DNA of 64,000 bases from Candidatus Competibacteraceae bacterium (GCA_036351435.1 JAZBPA010000065.1:1186-65185), one strand, 5' to 3'. Positions 29,771 through 40,532 are shown, numbered from the stretch's first letter. Translations and numbers: made by a program. Notes: a model not told the origin generated them from the letters alone.

Positions 29771-29800
29771 GATTTCCTAACGTATTACTAGGTGTTGAGA

Positions 29801-30313
29801 ATGATGCGCTTGCTGTTAATTGCAGCGTTATTTGTAGTGTTGAATCCGGTTTACGCGGAAAGAACCCAATCATTTGGATTGCACGCCGGAGTCTCTCTGA
29901 ACGAGAACAAGGAGTTTTATAGCGCGGTATTTTTTACCAGCCATCCGCTTTTTGAGCCTATGCAGACAGTAATTGGGAAAGTATATCCTCGGATTAATAC
30001 TGGTCTGGGGTTATTGTGGAACGATGAAAAAACAGGAGTTGTGGGTTCGTTGGGCCCAAGCGTTATATTTTTTGGGATGCAGGAAAGACTGAGGTTGGGG
30101 TTAGGGATCGATGTGGCCTTGCTGAGTCGTACTCAATTTGAAGAAACCGATTTCGGTAGCGCTTTGGAATTTATATCTTATGTCAATATTGCTTGGGGGA
30201 TTGTTGAAGGATTAACTGCAGGCTATCGCTTTCAACACATGTCTAATGCAGGTCTTAGCTCTATTAACCCCGGTCTAAACTTGCATGTATTATCACTTGA
30301 GTACTCTTACTGA
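29801..30313 (+). CDS. pagL: PagL-like lipid A 3-O-deacylase / acyloxyacyl hydrolase outer-membrane protein
   Basis: About 170 aa with a signal peptide (MMRLLLIAALFVVLNPVYA). The C-terminal FGSALEF...YRFQHMSNAGL...LSLEYSY parallels P. aeruginosa PagL LGSSLNF...IHYSNAGL...SLFYKIPI (catalytic His-x-Ser). Confidence 0.75.
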   Translation: MMRLLLIAALFVVLNPVYAERTQSFGLHAGVSLNENKEFYSAVFFTSHPLFEPMQTVIGKVYPRINTGLGLLWNDEKTGVVGSLGPSVIFFGMQERLRLGLGIDVALLSRTQFEETDFGSALEFISYVNIAWGIVEGLTAGYRFQHMSNAGLSSINPGLNLHVLSLEYSY

Positions 30314-30329
30314 TGGAGTTGGCAGCGTT

Positions 30330-31304
30330 GTGAAATTACAGCAACTTCGCTACTTAACAGCTATTGCCAAGAATAATCTAAATATCTCAGCAGCTGCTGA
30401 GGCGCTCTTTACTTCACAACCCGGGGTCAGTAAGCAGATTCGATTACTGGAAGATGAATTAGGCGTCGAGTTGTTCAACCGCAATGGCAAACATTTGACC
30501 CATATTACGCCGGTGGGACGACGCATTATCGAAAAAGCCGAACGGATTTTAGGAGAAGTACGCAACATTCAGACCCTGGCGGCGGAGTTCCGTGATGAGC
30601 AGCGGGGCAACTTGTCTATCGCCACCACTCATACTCAAGCGCGTTACGCCCTGCCGAGCGTTATCCAAACCTTTAGAGCTCGTTATCCGGCAGTCACTTT
30701 ACAATTGCACCAAGGTTCGCCTGCCCAGATTGCTGAGATGGCCTCGTCCGGCTTAGTGGATTTTGCGATCGCTACCGAAGCTTTAGAGTTGTTCGAAGAT
30801 CTGATAATGCTGCCTTGTTATCTTTGGCATCGGTGTATTTTAGTGCCTCATGGTCATCCACTTACCCAGTTAACCGAGTTGAGTTTGCAGGATGTCGCAG
30901 CTTATCCATTGGTGACTTATGTGTTTGGGTTCACCGGCCGATCTCAATTAGATGAAGCGTTTAAAGCCGCTCGATTAAAACCCACTGTTGCGTTTACGGC
31001 AACTGATGCTGATGTGCTAAAAACTTATGTCCGGCTTGGGCTGGGGGTTGGTATTATCGCTAGGATGGCACATGACCCTAAATTTGATCAGGATTTGGTT
31101 CCATTAGACGCTAGTCATTTGTTTGCTCCTAATACCACGATGATTGGATTTCGTCGCGGAACTTTTTTACGCAGCTATATGTATGATTTTATTTCGCTTT
31201 TTGCGCCTCACTTGACCTTGCAAGTGGTACAATCTGCAGAACGAAGTGACTCAGATGATGGCATTGATAATTTGTTCGAGTCGTTAGAGTTACCGATGCG
31301 GTAA
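30330..31304 (+). CDS. cysB: LysR-family transcriptional regulator CysB
   Basis: It is near-collinear with E. coli CysB: KLQQLRY, SQPGVSKQIRLLEDELG, ATTHTQARYALP, HQGSPxQIA, FAIATEAL, LVTYxFGFTGRSxLD, FTATDADVxKTYVRLGLGVG and GFRRGTFLRSYMYDFI. I infer a GTG start at 30330; the start is uncertain. Confidence 0.85.
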   Translation: MKLQQLRYLTAIAKNNLNISAAAEALFTSQPGVSKQIRLLEDELGVELFNRNGKHLTHITPVGRRIIEKAERILGEVRNIQTLAAEFRDEQRGNLSIATTHTQARYALPSVIQTFRARYPAVTLQLHQGSPAQIAEMASSGLVDFAIATEALELFEDLIMLPCYLWHRCILVPHGHPLTQLTELSLQDVAAYPLVTYVFGFTGRSQLDEAFKAARLKPTVAFTATDADVLKTYVRLGLGVGIIARMAHDPKFDQDLVPLDASHLFAPNTTMIGFRRGTFLRSYMYDFISLFAPHLTLQVVQSAERSDSDDGIDNLFESLELPMR

Positions 31305-31374
31305 TTAATCATCAGATGTTATTGTGTAGTGGTATTTATGTAAAGATGATGATATAAGAGCGATATTGAATCAT

Positions 31375-32268
31375 ATGAATAGCAACCCGGCCACCTTACG
31401 CATCGACCTTCTGGAAAATTTTCAACACCTGCTCAGCAGCCTGAATCAATTTTGCACTGCTTTACGCAACGACAATCGCTTACCCGCCTGGGTCTCGCGC
31501 ACTGAGCAGGAAATAAATGCCAGTCTTGCACCGCGCACCAAAGCCATTTCACTGTATCAGGCGTTATGGTATGAGGGTGATCAAGATGGCCGAGAAACGC
31601 TAACTTGCCCAGGTATCATCGGTGCCAGCCCGGCTACTCTGGAAGCTGCTCGCACCTGTAACACCAAGAAAGATAAATTTAAAGCGATTGTGCTCCAACT
31701 AAAAATCCTCAGCAAAGCTGAAGCCAGCCTAATAATGGCAGATCTGCACAGCCGTAACGAGGAAGTTGCAACGGCAATGAAACGTATGGGCGCAGCCCGA
31801 TTGAACCTGAAACAAGCGTATCGGCATATTCCGTTACTAGACCGTCGCCCATTAAAAATCGGCTTCACCTGGTCGAAACAAGGCCGTACTATTCAGCGTA
31901 CCAATGTCAGTGAAACCCGCCGACTGCTGGAACGCCGCAGGGAAACGCCTCAAATCAGGCAGGAACTGAACCAACTGAGCACACTGCCGGACAATGAGCA
32001 ACTCGCCCGAGTCCGCGGGGTTTGCCCCCATCTACGCGCCAATATAGTATTTGCTGAGGGCGGTAAGGCGTCGAATCGCAGACGGTTAATCCAAGCGCCC
32101 TTGCCCATTCTTGTCCCATTGCAAGGCAATGAAGCATTGCCGGATTTCGTACCGATTGAGACAGAACCTCAGGATAATCCAAGGCTCCGCCGTTCCGATG
32201 TTCGCATTGAAGACGATGTATTTCTTCCGTCTATCCGTGTTTACCGCTACCGAGAACCCTATCGATGA
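31375..32268 (+). CDS. Tus-like protein (candidate DNA replication terminus site-binding protein homologue)
   Basis: The by-eye alignment to E. coli Tus (recalled from memory) is collinear: CPGII/LPGVL, KDKFKAIV/KLKTTFEHIV, LKQAYRHI/LNAYRTL, KIGFTWSKQ/LRFGWANKH, LPDNEQLARVR..HLRANI/LPQNAKLKIKR..QPIARV, APLPILVPL/CPTPLIALI, FLPSIRVYRY/IIPRLHLYV. The length is similar (297 vs 309 aa). I take the ATG at 31375 (the ORF track starts at TTG 31366). Confidence 0.5.
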   Translation: MNSNPATLRIDLLENFQHLLSSLNQFCTALRNDNRLPAWVSRTEQEINASLAPRTKAISLYQALWYEGDQDGRETLTCPGIIGASPATLEAARTCNTKKDKFKAIVLQLKILSKAEASLIMADLHSRNEEVATAMKRMGAARLNLKQAYRHIPLLDRRPLKIGFTWSKQGRTIQRTNVSETRRLLERRRETPQIRQELNQLSTLPDNEQLARVRGVCPHLRANIVFAEGGKASNRRRLIQAPLPILVPLQGNEALPDFVPIETEPQDNPRLRRSDVRIEDDVFLPSIRVYRYREPYR

Positions 32269-35200
32269 ACCAGGGAAGCATGTTGTCGCCATCTAGCGAG
32301 GCGTTTTACCAACGCCATTGGCTGCTCATCGTCATCACCCTCTTGCTATTGTTCTGCCAACCCGCGTTTGCCAGTATGCCGTTGAACCGCGTTCCCATTC
32401 CCCTGCAACCTTGGGTGGATTGGGTGCTGTACGGGATCACTGAAACCCGCTGCCCTTTGGTATACAAGCAAACTGAGCAGTACCAATGCACTTGGCCATC
32501 CTCGCTAACGCTTAATGTTGGTCCACAAGGTGGGGAATTCGTGCAACGCTGGTGGATCGATACGGAAAGTTGGTTAACCTTGCCGGGCGATCTCAATCAT
32601 TGGCCGCAGCAGGTTCGTTTTGATGGTTATCCGACCATCGTCTTAGAACGAGATGGGCGCCCGGCGCTTAAGGCAGGAGTAGGCGCACATACTGTCAGTG
32701 GGCGCTTTATATGGCGTGAGTTACCGGATTCTCTAGCTGTTCCTTCCGATACGGCACTGTTATCTCTGACCTTAGCAGGTCGAGCGATTGCCGAACCCCG
32801 GTTAGAAAGAGACGGTCGAGTTCGCTTGCAACCGCAAGCCGTTGCCGCTGATTTGCAAAATCATCAGGAAATACGGGTTTTTCGCAAGATCATCGACGCT
32901 ATTCCTTTACTGCTGCACACTCGGGTAGAACTTCGCATCTCCGGGCAAGCACGAGAGGAATTATTAGGGAGAGCTTTGCCGTCAGGCTTCATCCCTCTTG
33001 AATTGAAGAGCCCATTGTCGGCTCGCTTAGAAGCCGACGGTCGCTTGCGGGTGCAAGTCAAACCCGGCACTTGGACGGTGCAATACAATGCCCGCCATAC
33101 CGGCCCGGTCAGCGAACTTTCCGCGCCAATCCCAGACGGACCTTGGGCCAAGCAGGAAATTTGGGTGTTTGAAGCACGACCTGCATTGCGGGTGGTTACG
33201 GTACAAGGTGCGCCTAGTTTGGACCCGGCGCAAACCAACTTGCCCGAGGACTGGCGACAGCTACCCGCTTATCTAATGCAACCTGGGCAGGAACTCACCT
33301 TAGTGACTCGAAAGCGCGGCGATGCCGATCCGGTTCCAGACCGGTTGCATTTGGAACGCACCTTGTGGCTCGATTTCGCCGGTAGGGGCTACACTGTACA
33401 GGATCGCTTGAACGGCACCATCTCCCGCAGCGCCCGACTGGAAGCAGCACCGCCTTTGTTGCTAGGCCAAGTGATGATCAATGGACAACCGCAGTTCATC
33501 ACCCGCCTACCTGACAGCGCCCTTGACGGTATTGAAGTTCGTCAAGGGCAGATTCAACTCACCGCGGACAGTCGCTTGGAACCGGCAAGAATTAATAGTT
33601 TACCGGCTGTCGGCTGGCAAATTGATCCTGCCAGTCTGCGCAATACTATCAATCTACCACCGGGATGGCGGCTATTGACCGCCCTGGGCACTGACCAAGC
33701 CTCAAAGACTTGGCTACAACGTTGGACCCTGCTGGACTTATTCGTTGTGCTGATTGCCGCGCTCAGTGTTGGCCGGTTATGGAGCTGGAACTATGGCGCT
33801 CTGGCGCTGGTCGGTCTGCTGCTCAGTTATCATGAGCCGAATGCCCCTCGGTTACTGTGGTTGAACGTATTAGCCGCCATCGCCCTGCTGCGGGTATTGC
33901 CGACGGGCCGGTTGTATGTACTCACTCAATGGTATTGGCGCGCATCCTGGCTAGCCCTGCTAGTCGTTACGCTGGCGTTTACCGTGCAACAAGTGCGCGG
34001 TGCGCTTTATTTGCAACTGTCTCAGTCTGCAGTAACCGACTTTAGCTTGTCAGACTTCGCCCCTATACCCTCTTCAACGCCGGCACCTGCCTTGGCGAAG
34101 CGTGCACCGGCGAGTTCACCGCCGGCCAGGGTTGCGGAAGAAGCCGTGAAACAGGACTATGACTCTACCATTCAGTTACAAACCGGTCCTGGTCTTCCTG
34201 ATTGGCGTTGGAATCAGGCCGTATTAAGTTGGAATGGACCGGTTGCTGCCGATCAACGGCTGCGACTCTGGTTCTCTCCACCCTGGGCGACCCGGTTATG
34301 GATGTTCATCAGCGCCGCATTGCTGCTTGCTTTACTCGTTAGAACAGCTCGGCCAGTCCGACCACCACCCAAATCAGAATCTGAGTTACTGCCAATCGCA
34401 CCGGCAGCCTCCCTGGTCCTCGCGCTACCTTTGTTGCTAACGACGTCTATCCTTCATGCCGAAACCTTACCTATGCCGTCTCTGGAACTGCTGGAAGAAT
34501 TGCGCGAGCGGCTGACCGAACCACCGGATTGCCAACCCCGCTGCACTCATCTGGCCACTCTGAACGTGTCTGCTACAGCGCAGGAACTACGACTCAAGCT
34601 GTTGTTGAACAGCCAAATCGATAGCGCTATCCCATTACCGTTACTGAGTGATCGAGCAATCCCGCTGAGTGCCAGTTTGGATGGACAACCATTTGCGCCA
34701 CTGTTTCGCGCATCGGATCATGGCCTGTGGGCAAGGGTACCCGCCGGCCAACACGAATTGGAGCTACGTGCGTTGCTACCGGCCGAGCTGCTCAGCTTTC
34801 AATTGCCTCTACCAATGAAACCCGGCTGGGTCAATGCTGAGATCACAGGTTGGGATATGGAAGGACTCTATGTCAGGGGCGAGATCGGCGATTCTATTCA
34901 GTTGACTCGCCAGCGTGGAGAGGGCTCAACAGTTGCGCTGCAACCCGGGGTAATACCACCATTTGTTATGCTGGAACGGGAATTAATTTTGGGCGTCGAT
35001 TGGCAAGTGCACTCTCGGGTGCGACGCATGAGCCAAGCAAACTCAGCCATCATACTGGCCGTCCCGCTGTTATCCGGAGAACGGGTCACAAGTCCGGGAG
35101 TTCGGGTACAAAACAATCAAGTATTGCTTAATTTGTCGCCATCCGAGTCTGCAACTGAGTGGACAGCAACCCTAGATAAGGCCTCGGAACTGACCTTAAA

Positions 35201-36317
35201 CGCTGCATTGACCCAGAGCTTCGTCGAGATCTGGCGACTTCGCGCCAGCCCGCTTTGGCACATCGAAGCCGCCGGCTTACCCATCATTCATCGACATGAC
35301 AGCAGTGGCCAATGGTTACCGGAGTGGCGTCCCTGGCCCGGAGAATCGTTGCAACTTACCATCAGCCGCCCGGCGGGGATCGCGGGTAAGACCGTAACCA
35401 TTGACTCCGCTCACTTGACTGTCGTACCCGGTCAACGGGCTACCGCCACGACGCTAGCACTATCCGTCCGTAGCAGTCGGGGCAGCGAACAAACGTTAAC
35501 CCTACCTGCAGGTGCTGAATTATCCGGCTTTGCAGTAAACGGCGTTTCGCAACCCTTACGATTGCAAAACCAGCGTTTAACTCTCGCGCTTAATCCCGGC
35601 GAGCAGCGGGTAACTGTGGATTGGCGTATTGAACAAGGCATATCAACACGTTACTTTACCCCCACCGTCGATTTAGGTTCGGATAGCGTGAATACTCGCA
35701 TCGTGCTTAAGCCACCCAACGACCGTTGGATACTCTTCACAGCAGGGCCACAGCTAGGACCAGCAGTATTGTTTTGGGGTATGTTAGTCGTCATTGCTTG
35801 TGGTGCACTGGCCTTAGGACGCTATGGGCAAACTCCATTATCGACCGGCCAGTGGTTCTTACTAGGCATCGGGCTGAGTCAGGCGGGCATTGCAGCAACG
35901 GTGTTGGTCATTGGCTGGCTGCTGTTGCTAGGTCGGCGTAAAGTGGCCGGCGAAACCTGGAATAAATGGTCATTCAATCTGCTGCAAATTGGCTTAGGGT
36001 TGCTCACCCTAGCCGCCTTAGTTGCTCTGTTATATGCCATCAATCAAGGTTTGCTGGGACCGCCAACCATGCAAATCGCTGGTAATGGCTCCAGTGCTTA
36101 CCAATTGCAATGGTATCAAGACCGATCAGCGGCGCAATTGCCTCAGGCTTGGGTGCTTTCCGTACCATTGATTGTGTATCGCGGTCTGATGTTGGCATGG
36201 GCGTTGTGGTTGGCTTTTGCCCTGTTACGCTGGCTAAACTGGGGTTGGCAATGCTTCAGCAGTGGCGGAATTTGGCGGCAGCTGCGTGCACAGCAAACCG
36301 ATCCGGTAGAAGGCTGA
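32265..36317 (+). CDS. 1350-aa polytopic membrane protein of unknown function, internally duplicated (leader helix, ~430-aa exported domain and 4 TM, twice)
   Basis: It is an uninterrupted ORF whose ATG overlaps the upstream stop (ATGA). Hydrophobic segments lie at about aa 19-36, 487-575 (x4), 677-692, 712-732 and 1155-1323 (x4). The two soluble regions share ordered motifs (see findings). Confidence 0.8.
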   Translation: MNQGSMLSPSSEAFYQRHWLLIVITLLLLFCQPAFASMPLNRVPIPLQPWVDWVLYGITETRCPLVYKQTEQYQCTWPSSLTLNVGPQGGEFVQRWWIDTESWLTLPGDLNHWPQQVRFDGYPTIVLERDGRPALKAGVGAHTVSGRFIWRELPDSLAVPSDTALLSLTLAGRAIAEPRLERDGRVRLQPQAVAADLQNHQEIRVFRKIIDAIPLLLHTRVELRISGQAREELLGRALPSGFIPLELKSPLSARLEADGRLRVQVKPGTWTVQYNARHTGPVSELSAPIPDGPWAKQEIWVFEARPALRVVTVQGAPSLDPAQTNLPEDWRQLPAYLMQPGQELTLVTRKRGDADPVPDRLHLERTLWLDFAGRGYTVQDRLNGTISRSARLEAAPPLLLGQVMINGQPQFITRLPDSALDGIEVRQGQIQLTADSRLEPARINSLPAVGWQIDPASLRNTINLPPGWRLLTALGTDQASKTWLQRWTLLDLFVVLIAALSVGRLWSWNYGALALVGLLLSYHEPNAPRLLWLNVLAAIALLRVLPTGRLYVLTQWYWRASWLALLVVTLAFTVQQVRGALYLQLSQSAVTDFSLSDFAPIPSSTPAPALAKRAPASSPPARVAEEAVKQDYDSTIQLQTGPGLPDWRWNQAVLSWNGPVAADQRLRLWFSPPWATRLWMFISAALLLALLVRTARPVRPPPKSESELLPIAPAASLVLALPLLLTTSILHAETLPMPSLELLEELRERLTEPPDCQPRCTHLATLNVSATAQELRLKLLLNSQIDSAIPLPLLSDRAIPLSASLDGQPFAPLFRASDHGLWARVPAGQHELELRALLPAELLSFQLPLPMKPGWVNAEITGWDMEGLYVRGEIGDSIQLTRQRGEGSTVALQPGVIPPFVMLERELILGVDWQVHSRVRRMSQANSAIILAVPLLSGERVTSPGVRVQNNQVLLNLSPSESATEWTATLDKASELTLNAALTQSFVEIWRLRASPLWHIEAAGLPIIHRHDSSGQWLPEWRPWPGESLQLTISRPAGIAGKTVTIDSAHLTVVPGQRATATTLALSVRSSRGSEQTLTLPAGAELSGFAVNGVSQPLRLQNQRLTLALNPGEQRVTVDWRIEQGISTRYFTPTVDLGSDSVNTRIVLKPPNDRWILFTAGPQLGPAVLFWGMLVVIACGALALGRYGQTPLSTGQWFLLGIGLSQAGIAATVLVIGWLLLLGRRKVAGETWNKWSFNLLQIGLGLLTLAALVALLYAINQGLLGPPTMQIAGNGSSAYQLQWYQDRSAAQLPQAWVLSVPLIVYRGLMLAWALWLAFALLRWLNWGWQCFSSGGIWRQLRAQQTDPVEG

Positions 36318-36351: not shown

Positions 36352-37581
36352 ATGTCCACTTCAGAACGGGTCACTTTCCCCGGATTTCAGGGCGATTTAC
36401 TCGCTGCACGATTAGATCACCCCGCTGGGGAATGTCGTGGTTATGCTTTATTTGCGCATTGTTTCAGTTGTTCTAAAGAAGTGCTGACCGCAGTACGCAT
36501 CAGTCGGGCTTTGGCTGAACGCGGCATTGCCGTCTTGCGCTTCGACTTTACTGGATTGGGCAGTAGCGGCGGGGAATTTGCCAATACAAATTTCTCCTCT
36601 AACGTGCAGGATTTAATACAAGCAGCCCAGTTTTTACGGGAGCATTATCAAGCGCCTGCGATTATGATTGGCCATAGCTTAGGCGGCGCGGCTGTATTAG
36701 CAGCAGCCGGATCGATTCCCGAAGTTCGTGCGGTTACCACCCTTAACGCACCCAGCGATGTCGCTCACGTGAGTCATTTTTTCGCCGCCGCCATCCCTGC
36801 GATTCAAACCCAAGGTGAAATGGAGGTCACCCTGGTTGGGCGCAAGTTCCGCATCAAGAAACAATTCTTAGACGACATCACAGAGCAAAATTTGCTCCAG
36901 CAAGTTGCTGAGCTACGTAAACCGTTATTGATCTTTCATTCCCCTGTCGACGAAGTGGTGGGCGTTGATCATGCGGCGCGGCTTTATGGTGCCGCCAAAC
37001 ACCCGAAAAGCTTTATTTCTTTGGACGATGCTGATCACATGGTATCGCGGGTTAGCGATGCGGATTTCGTTGCCAATGTACTGACAGCTTGGGCTAGCCG
37101 TTACCTCACAGTCGCAGCGCAACCCGAAGTCATTGAGACAGCACCCAATTCTGTGCAGGTGAGAGAAACCTTGCAAAGCCCTCTGGCGCAGGAAATCAAG
37201 GTCGGCTCTCACACCTTTCCGGCCGACGAGCCGGTCTCTTTAGGCGGCAAAGACTCTGGGCCTAATCCCTATGATTATTTGCTAGCCGCATTGGGCGCTT
37301 GCACGAATATGACCCTACGCATGTATGCCCAGCATAAGGGATTACCCGTGCAGCGGATCAGTGCCGAACTGAAGCACGATAAAATACATGCCAAGGATTG
37401 TGCGTATTGCGCAACCAAGACCGGCAAAATTGATCGGATTGAGCGCACGATCACTATCGAAGGCGATTTAAACGAAGAGCAACGAGCCCGGCTATTGGAG
37501 ATAGCTGACCGTTGCCCGGTACATCGCACCCTACACTCGGAAGTGCTGATTGAAACCCGTTCGAAACCTACAGCAACGTAA
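36352..37581 (+). CDS. bifunctional alpha/beta-hydrolase / OsmC-family protein
   Basis: The N-terminal half has the nucleophile elbow GHSLGG. The C-terminal ~140 aa (GPNPYDYLLAALGACTNMTLRMYA...CPVHRTL) is an OsmC/Ohr-type fold signature. GGAGAAATAAAT precedes the ATG, 34 nt after the giant ORF. Confidence 0.8.
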   Translation: MSTSERVTFPGFQGDLLAARLDHPAGECRGYALFAHCFSCSKEVLTAVRISRALAERGIAVLRFDFTGLGSSGGEFANTNFSSNVQDLIQAAQFLREHYQAPAIMIGHSLGGAAVLAAAGSIPEVRAVTTLNAPSDVAHVSHFFAAAIPAIQTQGEMEVTLVGRKFRIKKQFLDDITEQNLLQQVAELRKPLLIFHSPVDEVVGVDHAARLYGAAKHPKSFISLDDADHMVSRVSDADFVANVLTAWASRYLTVAAQPEVIETAPNSVQVRETLQSPLAQEIKVGSHTFPADEPVSLGGKDSGPNPYDYLLAALGACTNMTLRMYAQHKGLPVQRISAELKHDKIHAKDCAYCATKTGKIDRIERTITIEGDLNEEQRARLLEIADRCPVHRTLHSEVLIETRSKPTAT

Positions 37582-37961: not shown

Positions 37962-39308
37962 ATGCCTTTGACATCCAGTCGGGTTATCGCGGAAATCCTG
38001 GCATTGCTGCGCTTGGGTGGTCCGCTTATGGTAGCCCAGATTTCTTATATGTTAATGGGTTTTGCCGATACCGTAATGGTGGGTAAAGTCGGCGCCTTGG
38101 AGTTAGCTGCTGTCGCGATTGGTACCAGTTTCTGGCATCCCCTGTATTTATTGAATTTGGGGATATTGATGGCGACCAGTCCTTCTGTTGCGCATCTGTA
38201 TGGGGCCGGCAAACCATTGGAAATCGGTGGCTTAGTTCGTCAGGGCTTGTGGTTAAGCCTGTTGTTGAGCATACCGGCTTTCTTGTTGCTGCGAAGCACA
38301 ACTGGATTTATGCATTGGCTAGCGGTCGACCCGCCCATCATCCCGGTAACTGATGACTATCTTGAAGCACTGTCCTGGGGGATTCCCGCTGTATTCGCGT
38401 ATACCGTGTTGCGTTTTCTGAGCGAGGGCATTGGTTTTACCCGCCCTATCATGGTCATTGGTTTTATTGGATTGTTGATTAACGTAGCTCTTAATTACCT
38501 TCTCATCTATGGCAAATGGGGATTACCGGCGTTAGGGGCAACAGGATGTGGTTTGGCGACTGCGTTGACGCTGTGGATCATGTTGGCTTGTATGCTGGCG
38601 CTAAATATGCGGCATTACCGTTATCACACGTTTGCCTGTTTTGCTAGTTGGGATTGGCCCCATTGGCAAGAACTACGACCTTTGTTAGCTCTGGGGCTAC
38701 CGATCGGGTTCAGTATTTTCGCAGAATCCAGCATTTTTGCTGCTGTCGCGTTAGCTTTAGGCTTCTTGGGAGCTACTGTAGTTGCAGGCCATCAGATCGC
38801 GTTGAATGTGGCTGGGATGAGTTTTATGTTACCACTCAGCTTGGCGATGGCGATTACTGTCCGAGTTGGGCAAGCGATGGGACGCGGTTCACCGATTGAG
38901 GCCCGATTTAGCGGTGCTATCGGCATCATGCTGGGTGGCGTGATTATGGCTGTCATGGCGGTGCTTATATTCACACTCGCTGAGCCGATTAGTAGCATTT
39001 ATACCGAGGATGTTGAAGTGCTTGCCATCGCGACTCATTTGCTGCTATTCGCGGCGCTTTTTCAAATTTCAGATGGCTTGCAAGTTTCAGCTAATGGTGC
39101 CCTGCGTGGCTTTAAAGACACCCGTATTCCGTTCTTGGTGACTGTGTTGGCTTACTGGATAGTGGGATTTCCTACCGGTTATATTCTGGGCGTTATGCTA
39201 ATGATGGGAGCTTCAGGGATGTGGCTAGGTTTGCTTGCCGGTTTGTCAGTTGCCGCAGTTTTATTGAATGTCCGTTTTTGGTTGATCTCCAAAAAGATGA
39301 TGGTATAA
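37962..39308 (+). CDS. norM: MATE-family multidrug efflux transporter (NorM-like)
   Basis: 448 aa, 12 TM. The LLRLGGPLMVAQISYMLMGFADTVMVG N-terminus and the GALRGFKDTRIP motif are present. Confidence 0.9.
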   Translation: MPLTSSRVIAEILALLRLGGPLMVAQISYMLMGFADTVMVGKVGALELAAVAIGTSFWHPLYLLNLGILMATSPSVAHLYGAGKPLEIGGLVRQGLWLSLLLSIPAFLLLRSTTGFMHWLAVDPPIIPVTDDYLEALSWGIPAVFAYTVLRFLSEGIGFTRPIMVIGFIGLLINVALNYLLIYGKWGLPALGATGCGLATALTLWIMLACMLALNMRHYRYHTFACFASWDWPHWQELRPLLALGLPIGFSIFAESSIFAAVALALGFLGATVVAGHQIALNVAGMSFMLPLSLAMAITVRVGQAMGRGSPIEARFSGAIGIMLGGVIMAVMAVLIFTLAEPISSIYTEDVEVLAIATHLLLFAALFQISDGLQVSANGALRGFKDTRIPFLVTVLAYWIVGFPTGYILGVMLMMGASGMWLGLLAGLSVAAVLLNVRFWLISKKMMV

Positions 39309-39378
39309 GAACAAACTAATCACAGCACAAAAAAACATAAAAACCCCGCACCCATATTCTCTGATGATGGTATAAGAA
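39296..39378. repeat. 16-bp direct repeat (gatgatggtataagaa) duplicating the MATE gene 3' end, copies 67 nt apart
   Basis: Copy 1 is at 39296-39311 (last codons plus stop of norM). Copy 2 is at 39363-39378. The spacer contains an A-rich tract and aaaacccc...ggggtt. Confidence 0.7.
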
Positions 39379-39410: not shown

Positions 39411-40415
39411 CTACCGCCGGTCTCCGCTGATTAAATCGCCCAACCCTCCTAGCACGGAACCTTCGCCCTGCCTTCGGTTACCTGATTGTGGCGAACAGGC
39501 CAGCATACGGCCTGCTAGGCGGGAGAACGGCAAGGATTGCAACCATACATGGCCCGGCCCACGCAGATTCGCGAAAAACAGCCCCTCACCACCAAACAGA
39601 CCCGTTTTAATTCCACCCACCTGCTGGATGTCGAACGCTACGCTCTCCTGAAAAGCGACAACACAACCGGTATCGACGTGTAATTCTTCACCAGAAGCTA
39701 ACTGTTTCTCGTGAATGGTGCCGCCAGCATGAACGAACACCATACCGTCACCTTCTAGTTTCTGCATGATAAATCCTTCACCGCCAAACAACCCGGTCAG
39801 AATTTTACGTTGAAAGTGAATGCCGATACTGACGCCACGTGCGGCCGCCAGAAAACTATCCTTCTGGCAGATCAACCGCCCGCCCAGCTTTTCTAAAGAC
39901 AATGCCAGGATATTCCCCGGAAAAGGCGCAGCGAACGCAACATGTGCTTTGCCGTGATTACCAGCATGAGTAAACACAGTGATGAACAGACTTTCCCCGG
40001 TCAGCAGCCGCTTACCCGCGCCGAGCAATTTACCCATGAAACCGGTATTCGCAGCTTCTTGAGAACCGTCCCCAAAGATACTTTGCATCTGTATACAAGT
40101 ATCCTTGTACATCATTGCACCGGCTTCAGACACTGCACTTTCGCCGGGATCCAGTTCTACTTCCACGAACTGCATCTCGTGACCGTGAATCACATAATCA
40201 ATTTCATCGTTACGCAGTGTGGATGAGGGCGGGCTGGGGACGGCGGGTGAATTAGCCTGGGTCAAGTCGGCCACCTCGTTTATCGGTAGCCAACCGGACA
40301 AACCATCGTGCCAAGCATGACCCTGGGGATTAGCTGAAGCTTGGGAGCGGGCCTGCTCAAGTGTCATCGGACCGGTCTGTTGACCGTTATAGCTGAGGTA
40401 CCATTGCTGCGCCAT
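39411..40415 (-). CDS. GYF_2 (DUF4339) domain fused to AIM24/TIGR00266-family protein
   Basis: The N-terminal WYLSYNGQQTGPMTLEQ...HAWHDGLSGWLPI is a GYF_2-like block. The C-terminal ~240 aa has the GGEGLF/GGEGFIMQKLEGDG repeats typical of AIM24/DUF124. I prefer the ATG at 40415 over the TTG at 40421. Confidence 0.75.
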   Translation of the reverse strand: MAQQWYLSYNGQQTGPMTLEQARSQASANPQGHAWHDGLSGWLPINEVADLTQANSPAVPSPPSSTLRNDEIDYVIHGHEMQFVEVELDPGESAVSEAGAMMYKDTCIQMQSIFGDGSQEAANTGFMGKLLGAGKRLLTGESLFITVFTHAGNHGKAHVAFAAPFPGNILALSLEKLGGRLICQKDSFLAAARGVSIGIHFQRKILTGLFGGEGFIMQKLEGDGMVFVHAGGTIHEKQLASGEELHVDTGCVVAFQESVAFDIQQVGGIKTGLFGGEGLFFANLRGPGHVWLQSLPFSRLAGRMLACSPQSGNRRQGEGSVLGGLGDLISGDRR

Positions 40416-40532
40416 CAACAACCCCTTTCAACGAAATCACACCAATAAAATGGACTTTGGTTTTATTTGAATTTTTGCGAATTTGCACCAGGCTTGCAAA
40501 CCTGCCTCTAAACATAGAGCCCAACACTGGGT

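What the first reader, a model, noticed from the sequence alone, without database searches (positions are those of the whole stretch)
31375..36317. Tus-like gene translationally coupled to a giant duplicated membrane protein: candidate undescribed two-gene module
At the window centre, a 297-aa ORF aligns collinearly by eye with E. coli Tus across at least seven ordered blocks and has near-identical length. Its stop codon overlaps the ATG of a 1350-aa polytopic membrane protein (cgATGAacc). The E. coli tus is a stand-alone autoregulated gene, as I recall, and Tus-Ter fork traps are reported essentially only from Enterobacterales and a few neighbouring orders. The rest of this window (Pil-Chp cluster, PdxST, GnnAB) looks non-enteric. 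A Tus-fold DNA-binding protein co-translated with an envelope-spanning protein does not match any described system I know of. Speculative possibilities are membrane tethering of a specific DNA site (terminus or other), or a Tus-fold regulator of an envelope machine.
Basis: partly seen in the sequence, partly recalled or inferred. Interest (0 to 1): 0.85.

Follow-up and report, generated by a model that had tools for sequence, protein, structure and literature searches.

The report
Divergent Tus gene with polar DNA sites
The small gene is a real but very distant relative of the E. coli replication-terminator protein Tus; its pairing with the huge membrane protein is a local gene-order accident, but the gene is flanked by conserved one-directional 16-base DNA sites that look like an undescribed replication fork barrier outside the enteric bacteria.

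Summary
Both ORFs and their ATGA overlap are real. The window comes from a Candidatus Competibacteraceae genome.

The 297-aa protein is a genuine, very divergent Tus-family member. It passes the Pfam Ter cutoff, the only significant PDB hits by profile and by fold are E. coli Tus, and the alignment is collinear over the full length. NCBI already gives it that name.

The proposed two-gene module is not supported:
- The 1350-aa membrane protein lies next to a Tus-like gene in only 2 of 89 related loci, plus the window.
- The stop/start overlap is absent in one of those (L013).
- The large protein occurs alone in Desulfuromonas, Sulfuriflexus and elsewhere.

What travels with the gene is a 16-nt asymmetric site, AGATGATGRTATAANA. 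It occurs 129 times in 1.26 Mb of Competibacteraceae loci, against about 1 expected. Typical positions are just upstream of the gene, just downstream, and 2-13 kb further on in convergent gene gaps. All these copies are on the gene's strand. Opposite-strand clusters lie 3-5 kb upstream in four lineages, and dif lies 7-8 kb upstream in two.

I infer a resident Tus-Ter-type polar barrier with autoregulation, in which the large gene is cargo. DNA binding and fork arrest are untested.

The parts
30285..31304 (+). cysB (LysR-type regulator). It is the conserved upstream neighbour of the Tus-like gene. The true start is probably near Met16.
   Evidence: NCBIfam CysB equivalog, 528.9 bits against a cutoff of 436, with the alignment starting at residue 16. 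A cysB-like gene lies directly upstream of the Tus-like gene in 55 related loci.
31344..31359 (+). Proximal copy of the 16-nt asymmetric site (AGATGATGATATAAGA), ending 15 nt before the ATG. It is a candidate Ter-like operator that overlaps an extended -10-like element (TGaTATAAg).
   Evidence: A copy in this position is present in 42 of 66 Competibacteraceae loci. The logo shows conservation beyond the searched core.
31375..32268 (+). Divergent Tus-family gene (297 aa), encoding a predicted site-specific, monomeric DNA-binding protein.
32265..36317 (+). Large (1350 aa) envelope protein. It contains two copies of a unit made of a signal-like or TM segment, an all-beta ectodomain of about 430 aa, and a TM bundle. 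In this reading it is cargo, not a partner of the Tus-like protein.
   Evidence: TM clusters. Internal duplication of the ectodomains. AF2 model with pLDDT 80 and ribophorin I/Ost1-like beta-sandwich matches. 1774 homologues in many lineages with no Pfam family. Variable neighbourhoods.
36352..37581 (+). Alpha/beta-hydrolase-OsmC fusion gene, part of the variable + strand cargo block.
   Evidence: Pfam OsmC, Hydrolase_4 and Abhydrolase families.
37962..39308 (+). MatE-family transporter gene, the last + strand gene of the block. Its last codons and stop lie inside the next site.
   Evidence: ORF. MatE assignment from the orthologous gene in L007. Sequence ...AAG ATG ATG GTA TAA.
39295..39310 (+). 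Distal site copy 1 (AGATGATGGTATAAGA), overlapping the MatE stop codon.
39362..39377 (+). Distal site copy 2 (TGATGATGGTATAAGA). It lies in the roughly 100-nt gap between convergent genes, where there is no downstream gene for a promoter to drive.
   Evidence: In L007 and L094 a DJC28_CD gene lies between or near the equivalent copies.
39411..40421 (-). AIM24/GYF-like gene on the opposite strand. It is the syntenic right-hand boundary, where gene orientation flips.
   Evidence: ORF. The orthologous AIM24 gene occupies the same position in L007 and L094.

Best explanation
The 297-aa ORF encodes a resident, highly divergent member of the Tus (Ter-binding) family in Competibacteraceae.

Proposed mechanism (inferred). 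Like E. coli Tus, the protein binds as a monomer to an asymmetric site of about 16 bp, here AGATGATGRTATAANA. The copies are arranged in one orientation.
- One copy overlaps the gene's own extended -10 promoter and would give autoregulation, as TerB does for tus.
- One copy lies just after the gene.
- One or two copies lie 2-13 kb downstream, at the point where gene orientation flips.

Together these would form one arm of a polar barrier to replication forks, and probably also to RNA polymerase. The opposite arm is visible 3-5 kb upstream in some lineages, and dif lies close by in others.

The 1350-aa membrane protein is one of several variable cargo genes in the + strand block between the proximal and distal sites. 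In the window's sublineage, loss of the intervening genes (glgX and cysTWA in relatives) brought it against the Tus-like gene, so the two are probably co-transcribed here without being functionally linked.

Shown: family and fold membership, lack of conserved linkage to the large gene, and the existence, polarity and gene association of the sites.

Inferred: that the Tus-like protein binds these sites, and that the complexes arrest forks.
For: Family and fold.
- Pfam Ter is above its cutoff, and 57 of 91 diverse members hit Pfam Ter individually.
- The family profile hits only Tus in the PDB.
- hhalign gives 93 % probability over the full length.
- Foldseek hits Tus alone, E = 1e-14.
- DNA-recognition core residues map to conserved family positions: W172 to W (86/91), A173 to A/S, H176 to R/K, K89 to R/K, R288 to R (83/91).
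- The family is large: 908 representatives of 50 % identity clusters.

Residency. The cysB to tus-like synteny holds in 55 species-level loci.

Sites.
- 129 copies in 1.26 Mb, against 0-2 in shuffles.
- Flanking positions -1 and +14 are conserved although they were not searched for, while the surrounding sequence is unconserved.
- Strand: 117 (+) to 8 (-), with all (-) copies upstream of the gene.
- 31 of the 41 distal copies face an opposite-strand gene.
- There are no copies in 42.6 kb of Competibacteraceae control loci, and none in the 56 kb of the window outside 31.3-39.4 kb.
- Opposed clusters are present in L064, L067, L068 and L072.

Terminus indications.
- A perfect or 1-mismatch dif core lies 7-8 kb upstream in L059 and L016.
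- Same-orientation genes shift in GC skew across the window.

E. coli analogy. TerB lies on the tus coding strand, 11 nt before the ATG (PMC8707476).

Linkage to the large gene is refuted.
Against: - No binding or arrest data exist.
- The core of the site doubles as an extended -10 (TGnTATAA), and two of its three usual positions are promoter-like.
- Copies in different species are inherited, so the counts are not independent events.
- The window shows only one arm: there is no opposite-strand copy and no dif within 64 kb.
- The compact loci with both arms contain no dif between the arms.
- The residues of the E. coli cytosine-lock pocket do not appear conserved: F140 and H144 map to variable positions, G149 maps to R, and E49 and R198 fall in Tus-only insertions. 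This rests on a low-identity alignment. Any arrest would need a different lock.
- Distant family members (Piscirickettsia, Berkiella, Legionellales) show no comparable sites.
- In P. salmonis there is no GC-skew switch within 10 kb of the gene.
- The motif is of fairly low complexity and occurs as mini-satellites in unrelated AT-rich DNA.
Confidence: 0.58

Rival explanations
1. The Tus-fold protein is a site-specific transcription factor or insulator. The 16-nt sites are operators or roadblocks that regulate the gene block they bracket, and they have no role in replication termination.
For: - The proximal site overlaps a -10-like element.
- Sites bracket genes in the direction of transcription, including a TraB/GumN-family gene in L067 and L064.
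- The lock-pocket residues are not conserved.
- The window has no dif and no opposite arm.
Against: - The bracketed cargo genes vary freely between lineages (glgX, cysTWA, the large gene, MatE, serS) while the sites persist.
- Opposed clusters and dif proximity fit a fork trap better.
- Every characterised member of the fold is a replication terminator.
Confidence: 0.22
2. The motif is simply a strong lineage-specific extended -10 promoter. It is not bound by the Tus-like protein, and its association with the gene is inherited synteny.
For: - TGnTATAA core.
- 40 of 42 proximal copies and 27 of 32 just-downstream copies precede a same-strand gene.
Against: - 31 of 41 distal copies lie in convergent gaps with no gene to drive.
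- Six conserved positions lie upstream of the TG, and there is a conserved A at +14.
- The motif is virtually absent from about 600 kb of upstream flanks that hold many genes, and absent from control loci.
- In the window both distal copies are retained although the gene that lies between them in relatives is gone.
Confidence: 0.1
3. One reading: a functional two-gene module in which a Tus-fold DNA binder works with, or is tethered by, the large envelope protein.
For: - 4-nt stop/start overlap in the window and a possible GTGA overlap in L007.
- No terminator between the genes.
Against: - The adjacency occurs in 3 of about 90 lineages, and in L013 a 59-nt spacer separates the genes.
- The large gene is about 7 kb away in L094 and elsewhere in the genome in L093 and L095.
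- The large protein's family is widespread without Tus-like neighbours.
- The large protein has no DNA-related or cytoplasmic interaction domain; it consists of beta-sandwich ectodomains plus TM bundles.
Confidence: 0.03
4. The gene and its sites are a remnant of an integrated plasmid or chromid replication-termination system and have no current chromosomal role.
For: - Family members occur on 25 plasmids and megaplasmids, mostly non-mobilizable.
- Tus is thought to derive from plasmids (PMC6549158).
- Integrase and IS elements lie between the arms in L067 and L072.
Against: - Conserved synteny with cysB across 55 species, and a full-length protein with 19 invariant or nearly invariant columns across 27-86 % identity.
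- The sites are maintained while the flanking DNA is unconserved, which indicates purifying selection.
Confidence: 0.05

Closest known systems
E. coli Tus-Ter (type II replication fork trap; PDB 1ECR, 2I06, 4XR0)
   Same: - Same fold and family, about the same length, collinear alignment.
- An asymmetric site on the coding strand just upstream of the gene, next to or overlapping the -10.
- Further same-orientation sites beyond the gene, an opposite-orientation cluster on the other side, and dif on the upstream side.
   Different: - Only 15-19 % identity.
- The site sequence (AGATGATGRTATAANA) is not Ter (AGNATGTTGTAACTAA).
- Sites are packed within 1-13 kb instead of hundreds of kb.
- An extra site lies immediately after the gene.
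- The cytosine-lock pocket and the E49 and R198 regions appear not to be conserved.
- The host is Competibacteraceae, not Enterobacterales.
Type I (ancestral) fork traps of non-Enterobacteriaceae Enterobacterales such as Edwardsiella tarda and Dickeya paradisiaca (Toft et al. 2021, PMC8707476)
   Same: - The innermost site is vicinal to tus and presumably autoregulatory.
- The trap is narrow and has few sites.
   Different: - Those Tus proteins are at least 48 % identical to E. coli Tus, keep the lock pocket and use canonical Ter sequences.
- Here the arms are only 3-5 kb apart in the compact lineages, against 18 kb for the narrowest one reported.
- Function is unproven here.
Mobile or plasmid-borne tus and the tus of Pseudoalteromonas chromosome 2 (Galli et al. 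2019, PMC6549158)
   Same: Members of the same divergent family lie on large plasmids of Halomonas, Methylophaga, Vibrio and Pseudomonas. This is compatible with repeated domestication from plasmids.
   Different: The Competibacteraceae gene meets the 'resident' criterion of conserved chromosomal context, and it lies near dif rather than near an origin in the two loci where a landmark is visible.
Bacillus subtilis RTP-Ter
   Same: It has the same proposed job, a polar fork barrier made of protein-bound asymmetric sites arranged in opposed clusters.
   Different: The fold is unrelated (a winged-helix dimer) and the sites are bipartite. There is no homology.
Ribophorin I/Ost1 luminal domain (PDB 6S7O_E, 6EZN_A), for the large protein only
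   Same: Tandem beta-sandwich ectodomain anchored by TM helices (Foldseek probability 1.0, E = 5e-6).
   Different: - Identity is 8-10 %.
- The protein is bacterial, duplicated, and polytopic with about 10 TM helices.
- No oligosaccharyltransferase partner is evident.
- This is a resemblance of fold only.

Membership tests
Tus / Pfam PF05472 (DNA replication terminus site-binding protein) | Sequence match to the family HMM above the curated threshold | tested here: met
   25.9 bits against a gathering cutoff of 22, E = 6e-6, but covering residues 143-270 only. 57 of 91 diverse relatives match individually, best E = 7e-11.
Tus / Pfam PF05472 (DNA replication terminus site-binding protein) | Tus fold (two alpha/beta domains with a central interdomain beta-sheet cleft) | tested here: met
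   AF2 model with pLDDT 93.9. Foldseek against the PDB returns only Tus chains as significant hits: E = 1e-14 to 1e-13, probability 1.0, TM 0.57-0.61. The next hit has E = 0.1.
Tus / Pfam PF05472 (DNA replication terminus site-binding protein) | Full-length collinearity and size (about 300 aa, single domain architecture) | tested here: met
   hhalign of the family profile against E. coli Tus aligns residues 3-295 with 1-309: 268 columns, 93 % probability, E = 5e-8. hmmsearch aligns profile positions 8-262 with Tus 6-277.
Tus / Pfam PF05472 (DNA replication terminus site-binding protein) | Conservation of DNA-recognition core residues (K89, W172/A173, H176, Q250, R288 of E. coli Tus; the residue list is from my own knowledge of the Tus-Ter structures) | tested here: inconclusive
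   These residues map to conserved family positions: R/K, W 86/91, A/S, R/K, R 76/91 and R 83/91. The alignment is at 15-19 % identity, and no structure-based residue mapping was available.
Tus-Ter replication fork trap (the system) | Cognate asymmetric DNA site next to the tus gene (autoregulatory Ter) | tested here: met
   A 16-nt asymmetric site lies 22-48 nt upstream of the start codon in 42 of 66 Competibacteraceae loci, and at 31344-31359 in the window. That it is the cognate site is inferred from association, not from binding.
Tus-Ter replication fork trap (the system) | Multiple sites in two opposed orientation clusters | tested here: inconclusive
   One arm, in which every copy is on the gene's strand, is seen in nearly all loci. 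The opposite arm is seen within 10 kb only in L064, L067, L068 and L072. It is not present in the window's 64 kb. Whole genomes could not be scanned.
Tus-Ter replication fork trap (the system) | Location at the replication terminus (near dif and the GC-skew switch) | tested here: inconclusive
   The dif core lies 7-8 kb upstream in L016 and L059. No dif is present in the window. The skew shift across the window is weak. In P. salmonis the gene is near the midpoint of the record, but there is no skew switch within 10 kb.
Tus-Ter replication fork trap (the system) | Cytosine-specific lock pocket (I79, F140, H144, G149) with E49 and R198, and a G-C(6) pair in the site | tested here: not met
   I79 maps to Y, F140 and H144 map to variable positions, and G149 maps to R (88/91). 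E49 and R198 fall in insertions that the family lacks. This is a low-identity alignment, so the result is provisional. The role of the pocket and of R198 is described in PMC8707476.
Tus-Ter replication fork trap (the system) | Protein binds the sites and arrests forks in a polar manner | not testable with these tools
   This needs EMSA, DAP-seq or ChIP-seq, and 2D-gel or marker-frequency analysis.
Conserved two-gene operon (Tus-like plus large membrane protein) | Adjacency conserved across related genomes | tested here: not met
   2 of 89 Tus-like loci, plus the window. The downstream neighbours elsewhere are isoamylase, serS or PPK2.
Conserved two-gene operon (Tus-like plus large membrane protein) | Phyletic co-occurrence of the two families | tested here: not met
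   The large-protein family occurs in Desulfuromonas, Sulfuriflexus and Thioalkalivibrio without a Tus-like neighbour. Tus-like loci of Piscirickettsia, Berkiella and others lack the large gene.
Conserved two-gene operon (Tus-like plus large membrane protein) | Conserved stop/start overlap (translational coupling) | tested here: not met
   ATGA in the window. GTGA is possible in L007, although the gene caller puts a 41-nt gap there. L013 has a 59-nt spacer.

The most novel reading that the evidence does not exclude
Competibacteraceae carry a resident, functional replication fork trap built from a Tus homologue only about 15 % identical to E. coli Tus. It would use a new 16-bp polar site unrelated to enterobacterial Ter, with the two arms as little as 3-5 kb apart and without the cytosine-lock pocket. 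That would mean a different arrest mechanism on the same fold. It would also mean that Tus-type fork traps, and the 900-plus cluster family found here on chromosomes and megaplasmids, are far more widespread in Gammaproteobacteria than the three clades currently recognised.
Probability: 0.4. Interest if true: 0.75.

Novelty: new variant of a known kind. Interest (0 to 1): 0.55.

Why it matters
Current reviews treat fork traps as a speciality of a few clades: Tus in Enterobacterales, Aeromonadales and Pseudoalteromonas, and RTP in some Bacillales. Debate continues over whether the trap or the cytosine 'mousetrap' lock is essential.

A resident, very divergent Tus with its own polar sites in an environmentally dominant wastewater lineage would contribute in three ways:
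- It would extend the known distribution of the system.
- It would offer a natural test of whether polar arrest needs the C(6) lock.
- It would provide an orthogonal protein-DNA barrier pair for replication and transcription roadblock tools.

It also shows that the eye-catching pairing with a large membrane protein is a gene-order accident, which saves effort on a false lead.

Tried and rejected
- Single-sequence phmmer, and a profile built only from Competibacteraceae sequences, against the PDB did not reach Tus. A 91-sequence diverse profile was needed.
- NCBIfam has no model that matches either protein.
- A dif search in the window found nothing.
- GC skew over 64 kb is dominated by gene orientation, and only a weak same-orientation shift remains.
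- Rfam and tRNA scans of the window found nothing. The stretch after the 39.36 kb site therefore matches no known RNA family.
It was repeated with A4.
- De novo and upstream-seeded searches for analogous sites in Piscirickettsia, Berkiella and Legionellales loci gave only background.
- The metagenome scan for tandem site pairs returned 64 loci. Almost all are AT-rich mini-satellites unrelated to Competibacteraceae and none has a Tus-like gene, so it was uninformative. It does show that the motif is of fairly low complexity.
- The last homology search, with E. coli Tus, listed only relatives at 81 % identity or more. It did not improve the residue mapping of the lock pocket.
- The sequence resemblance between the new site and E. 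coli Ter (ATG.TG..A...AA, about 10 of 17 positions by eye) was considered too weak to use as evidence.
- Lookups of residue names in PMC4499146 found nothing.
Full report
**Observation**

The two ORFs exist as described. The small ORF runs 31366/31375..32268 (+) and is 300 aa from the TTG or 297 aa from the ATG. The large ORF runs 32265..36317 (+) and is 1350 aa. The junction reads cgATGAacc.

The identical proteins are on record from a Candidatus Competibacteraceae MAG. NCBI names the small one 'DNA replication terminus site-binding protein' and starts the large one at Met6 (1345 aa), which would remove the overlap. In the nearest relative, L007, the junction is cgGTGAacc, and the residues encoded before that Met are conserved. 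The overlapping start is therefore plausible in this sublineage.

**Is the small protein Tus-like?**

Yes, although it is remote.
- Pfam Ter (PF05472) scores 25.9 bits against a cutoff of 22, over residues 143-270 only.
- Single-sequence and shallow-profile searches of the PDB miss Tus.
- An exhaustive profile search showed that the family is large: 908 representatives of 50 % identity clusters at E ≤ 1e-3, almost all 280-310 aa.
- With a 91-sequence alignment, the only significant PDB hits are the E. coli Tus chains, at E = 8e-6 and near full length.
- 57 of the 91 members match Pfam Ter on their own.
- hhalign to E. coli Tus, whose sequence was taken from MG1655, gives 93 % probability over 268 columns that span both proteins.
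- An AlphaFold2 model (pLDDT 93.9, pTM 0.88) matches only the Tus-DNA complexes in the PDB: E = 1e-14, probability 1.0, TM 0.57-0.61, 15 % identity. The next hit has E = 0.1.

Residues of the central DNA-recognition region map to conserved family positions: W172, A173, H176, K89 and R288. The cytosine-lock pocket does not appear conserved. I79, F140, H144 and G149 are not matched by similar residues, and E49 and R198 fall in Tus-only insertions. This mapping is provisional because identity is so low.

**Is there a two-gene module?**

No.
- In a closed 3.6 Mb Competibacteraceae genome and in Ca. Contendobacter, the gene order is cysB, tus-like, isoamylase.
- Elsewhere the downstream neighbour is serS or PPK2, in convergent orientation.
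- The genome-collection scan brought the session total to 89 loci with a Tus-like gene. The large gene lies beside it in only two of them, L007 and L013. In L013 a 59-nt spacer separates the genes.
- cysB lies directly upstream in 55 loci.
- In L094 the order is tus-like, glgX, a sulfate ABC transporter, the large gene, DJC28_CD, DUF3422, and then convergent genes. The large gene is therefore about 7 kb away. The window's adjacency is most simply explained by loss of the intervening genes.
- In other Competibacteraceae the large gene lies elsewhere in the genome. In Sulfuriflexus and Desulfuromonas it stands alone.

**What is the large protein?**

- It has 1774 or more homologues across several phyla and matches no Pfam or NCBIfam family.
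- It begins with a signal-like segment. The TM clusters lie at about 484-581, 674-735 and 1167-1320.
- Its two soluble regions of about 430 aa are homologous to each other at the profile level: 92 % probability, E = 7e-7, 304 columns.
- A model of residues 1-1200 (pLDDT 80) shows all-beta ectodomains. The best structural matches are the ribophorin I/Ost1 luminal domain and generic Ig/MG-type arrays.
- Nothing links it to DNA. Its function remains unknown; it is most likely a periplasm-facing scaffold or binding protein.

**What does travel with the Tus-like gene?**

Comparing upstream regions revealed a conserved element. Searched as GATGATGRTATAA with at most one mismatch, it occurs 129 times in 1.26 Mb of Competibacteraceae loci, against 0-2 in shuffles. 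In the window there are 3 copies against 0.5 expected.

*Extent of the site.* The logo extends to A at position -1 and A at +14. Neither position was part of the search, and the flanks beyond them are unconserved. This defines a 16-nt asymmetric site, AGATGATGRTATAANA.

*Positions.*
- 42 copies lie up to 60 nt upstream of the start codon.
- 32 copies lie at or just after the stop codon.
- 41 copies lie further downstream (2.4-7.4 kb in the surveyed loci). Of these, 31 face an opposite-strand gene, meaning they sit in convergent gaps.

*Polarity.* 117 copies are on the gene's strand and 8 are on the other strand. All 8 lie upstream of the gene and form opposed clusters 3-5 kb from the proximal site in L064, L067, L068 and L072.

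*Controls.* Control Competibacteraceae loci without the gene have no copies in 42.6 kb. The window has none outside 31.3-39.4 kb.

*In the window.* The copies are at 31344, 39295 (overlapping the MatE stop codon) and 39362 (in the convergent gap before an AIM24-like gene). Relatives carry a DJC28_CD gene between the two distal copies.

*Landmarks nearby.* A dif core with no mismatch (L059) or one mismatch (L016) lies 7-8 kb upstream. The right-hand neighbours in the compact loci are serS, rarA, lolA and a probable ftsK. Integrase and IS genes lie between the arms.

**Interpretation**

The geometry parallels E. coli. There, TerB lies on the tus coding strand 11 nt before the ATG (PMC8707476), further same-orientation sites lie beyond it, and the opposite cluster lies across dif. 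It is closest to the 'type I' traps, in which the innermost Ter is vicinal to tus (PMC8707476). I therefore infer that the protein binds these sites, represses its own promoter, and forms a polar barrier.

This is inference. The core of the site is also an extended -10. Copies are inherited rather than independent. The window shows one arm only and no dif. The GC-skew evidence is weak. Distant family members show no comparable sites. The lock pocket seems absent.

**Relation to what is known**

Reviews restrict Tus homologues to Enterobacterales, Pseudoalteromonas and Aeromonadales, plus mobile copies (PMC6549158, PMC10331603). No held paper links Tus to Competibacter, Piscirickettsia or Legionellales.

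The family found here also occurs in Piscirickettsia salmonis, Legionellales, Ca. Berkiella, Thalassolituus and Amphritea. It is present on 25 large plasmids and absent from phages.

**Verdict**

The 'module' interpretation is rejected. What is really there is a new, divergent variant of a known kind of system, with candidate cognate sites that make it directly testable.

Noticed in passing
L016 2994-3016 (+) and L059 2050-2072 (+): Sequences matching the E. coli-type dif core GCATAATGTATATTATGTTAAAT, with 1 mismatch in L016 and none in L059, lie 7-8 kb upstream of the Tus-like gene in two Competibacteraceae MAGs. No dif-like sequence occurs in the 64-kb window.
   Followed up: partly
window 39295-39377; L007 6873 and 7275; L094 15802: The two distal site copies in the window are 67 nt apart. 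In L007 a DJC28_CD gene lies between the equivalent copies. The gene has been lost in the window but both sites are retained.
   Followed up: partly
L083 11254-11880; L081 11253-11450: In Piscirickettsia salmonis an array of a 15-nt tandem repeat (GTTTCACCTTCTGGS-like) starts about 400 nt downstream of the Tus-like gene. It has more than 40 copies in one strain and fewer in the other. It is probably a coding pentapeptide repeat of variable length.
   Followed up: no
L083 (NZ_CP181382.1, 1,519,254-1,540,105 of 3,076,404): The P. salmonis Tus-like gene lies within about 9 kb of the midpoint of the chromosome record. GC skew is uniformly negative across the 20-kb locus, so no skew switch is visible there. 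Whether the record starts at oriC was not checked.
   Followed up: partly
window 29792-30313 and 30285-31304: A PagL-like lipid A deacylase ORF appears to overlap cysB by 29 nt. The CysB model aligns only from residue 16, so the overlap is probably an artefact of taking the first start codon.
   Followed up: no
window 36352-37581; L006 7141-7914: An alpha/beta-hydrolase (Hydrolase_4)-OsmC fusion gene follows the large gene in the window. In Desulfuromonas a Hydrolase_4 gene immediately precedes the large gene's homologue. This may be a weak recurring association.
   Followed up: no
L028; proteins P0163 and P0170: A contig labelled Synechococcaceae cyanobacterium carries the Competibacteraceae-type cysB to tus-like arrangement. 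Homologues of the large protein at 48-51 % identity are labelled Phycisphaerales and Anaerolineae, the latter as 'YkgJ family cysteine cluster protein'. These are probably mis-binned contigs or mis-annotations.
   Followed up: no
L067 387-1611 and L064 1671-2897: In the compact loci the opposite-strand site copies bracket a TraB/PrgY/GumN-family gene, in the same 'site, gene, site' manner as the Tus-like gene is bracketed.
   Followed up: partly
plasmid hits H8-H15 (Vibrio and Pseudomonas megaplasmids, 0.88-0.97 Mb): Divergent Tus-like genes at 28-31 % identity lie on very large non-mobilizable replicons, mostly annotated as hypothetical. Their position relative to the plasmid origin or terminus was not examined.
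   Followed up: no
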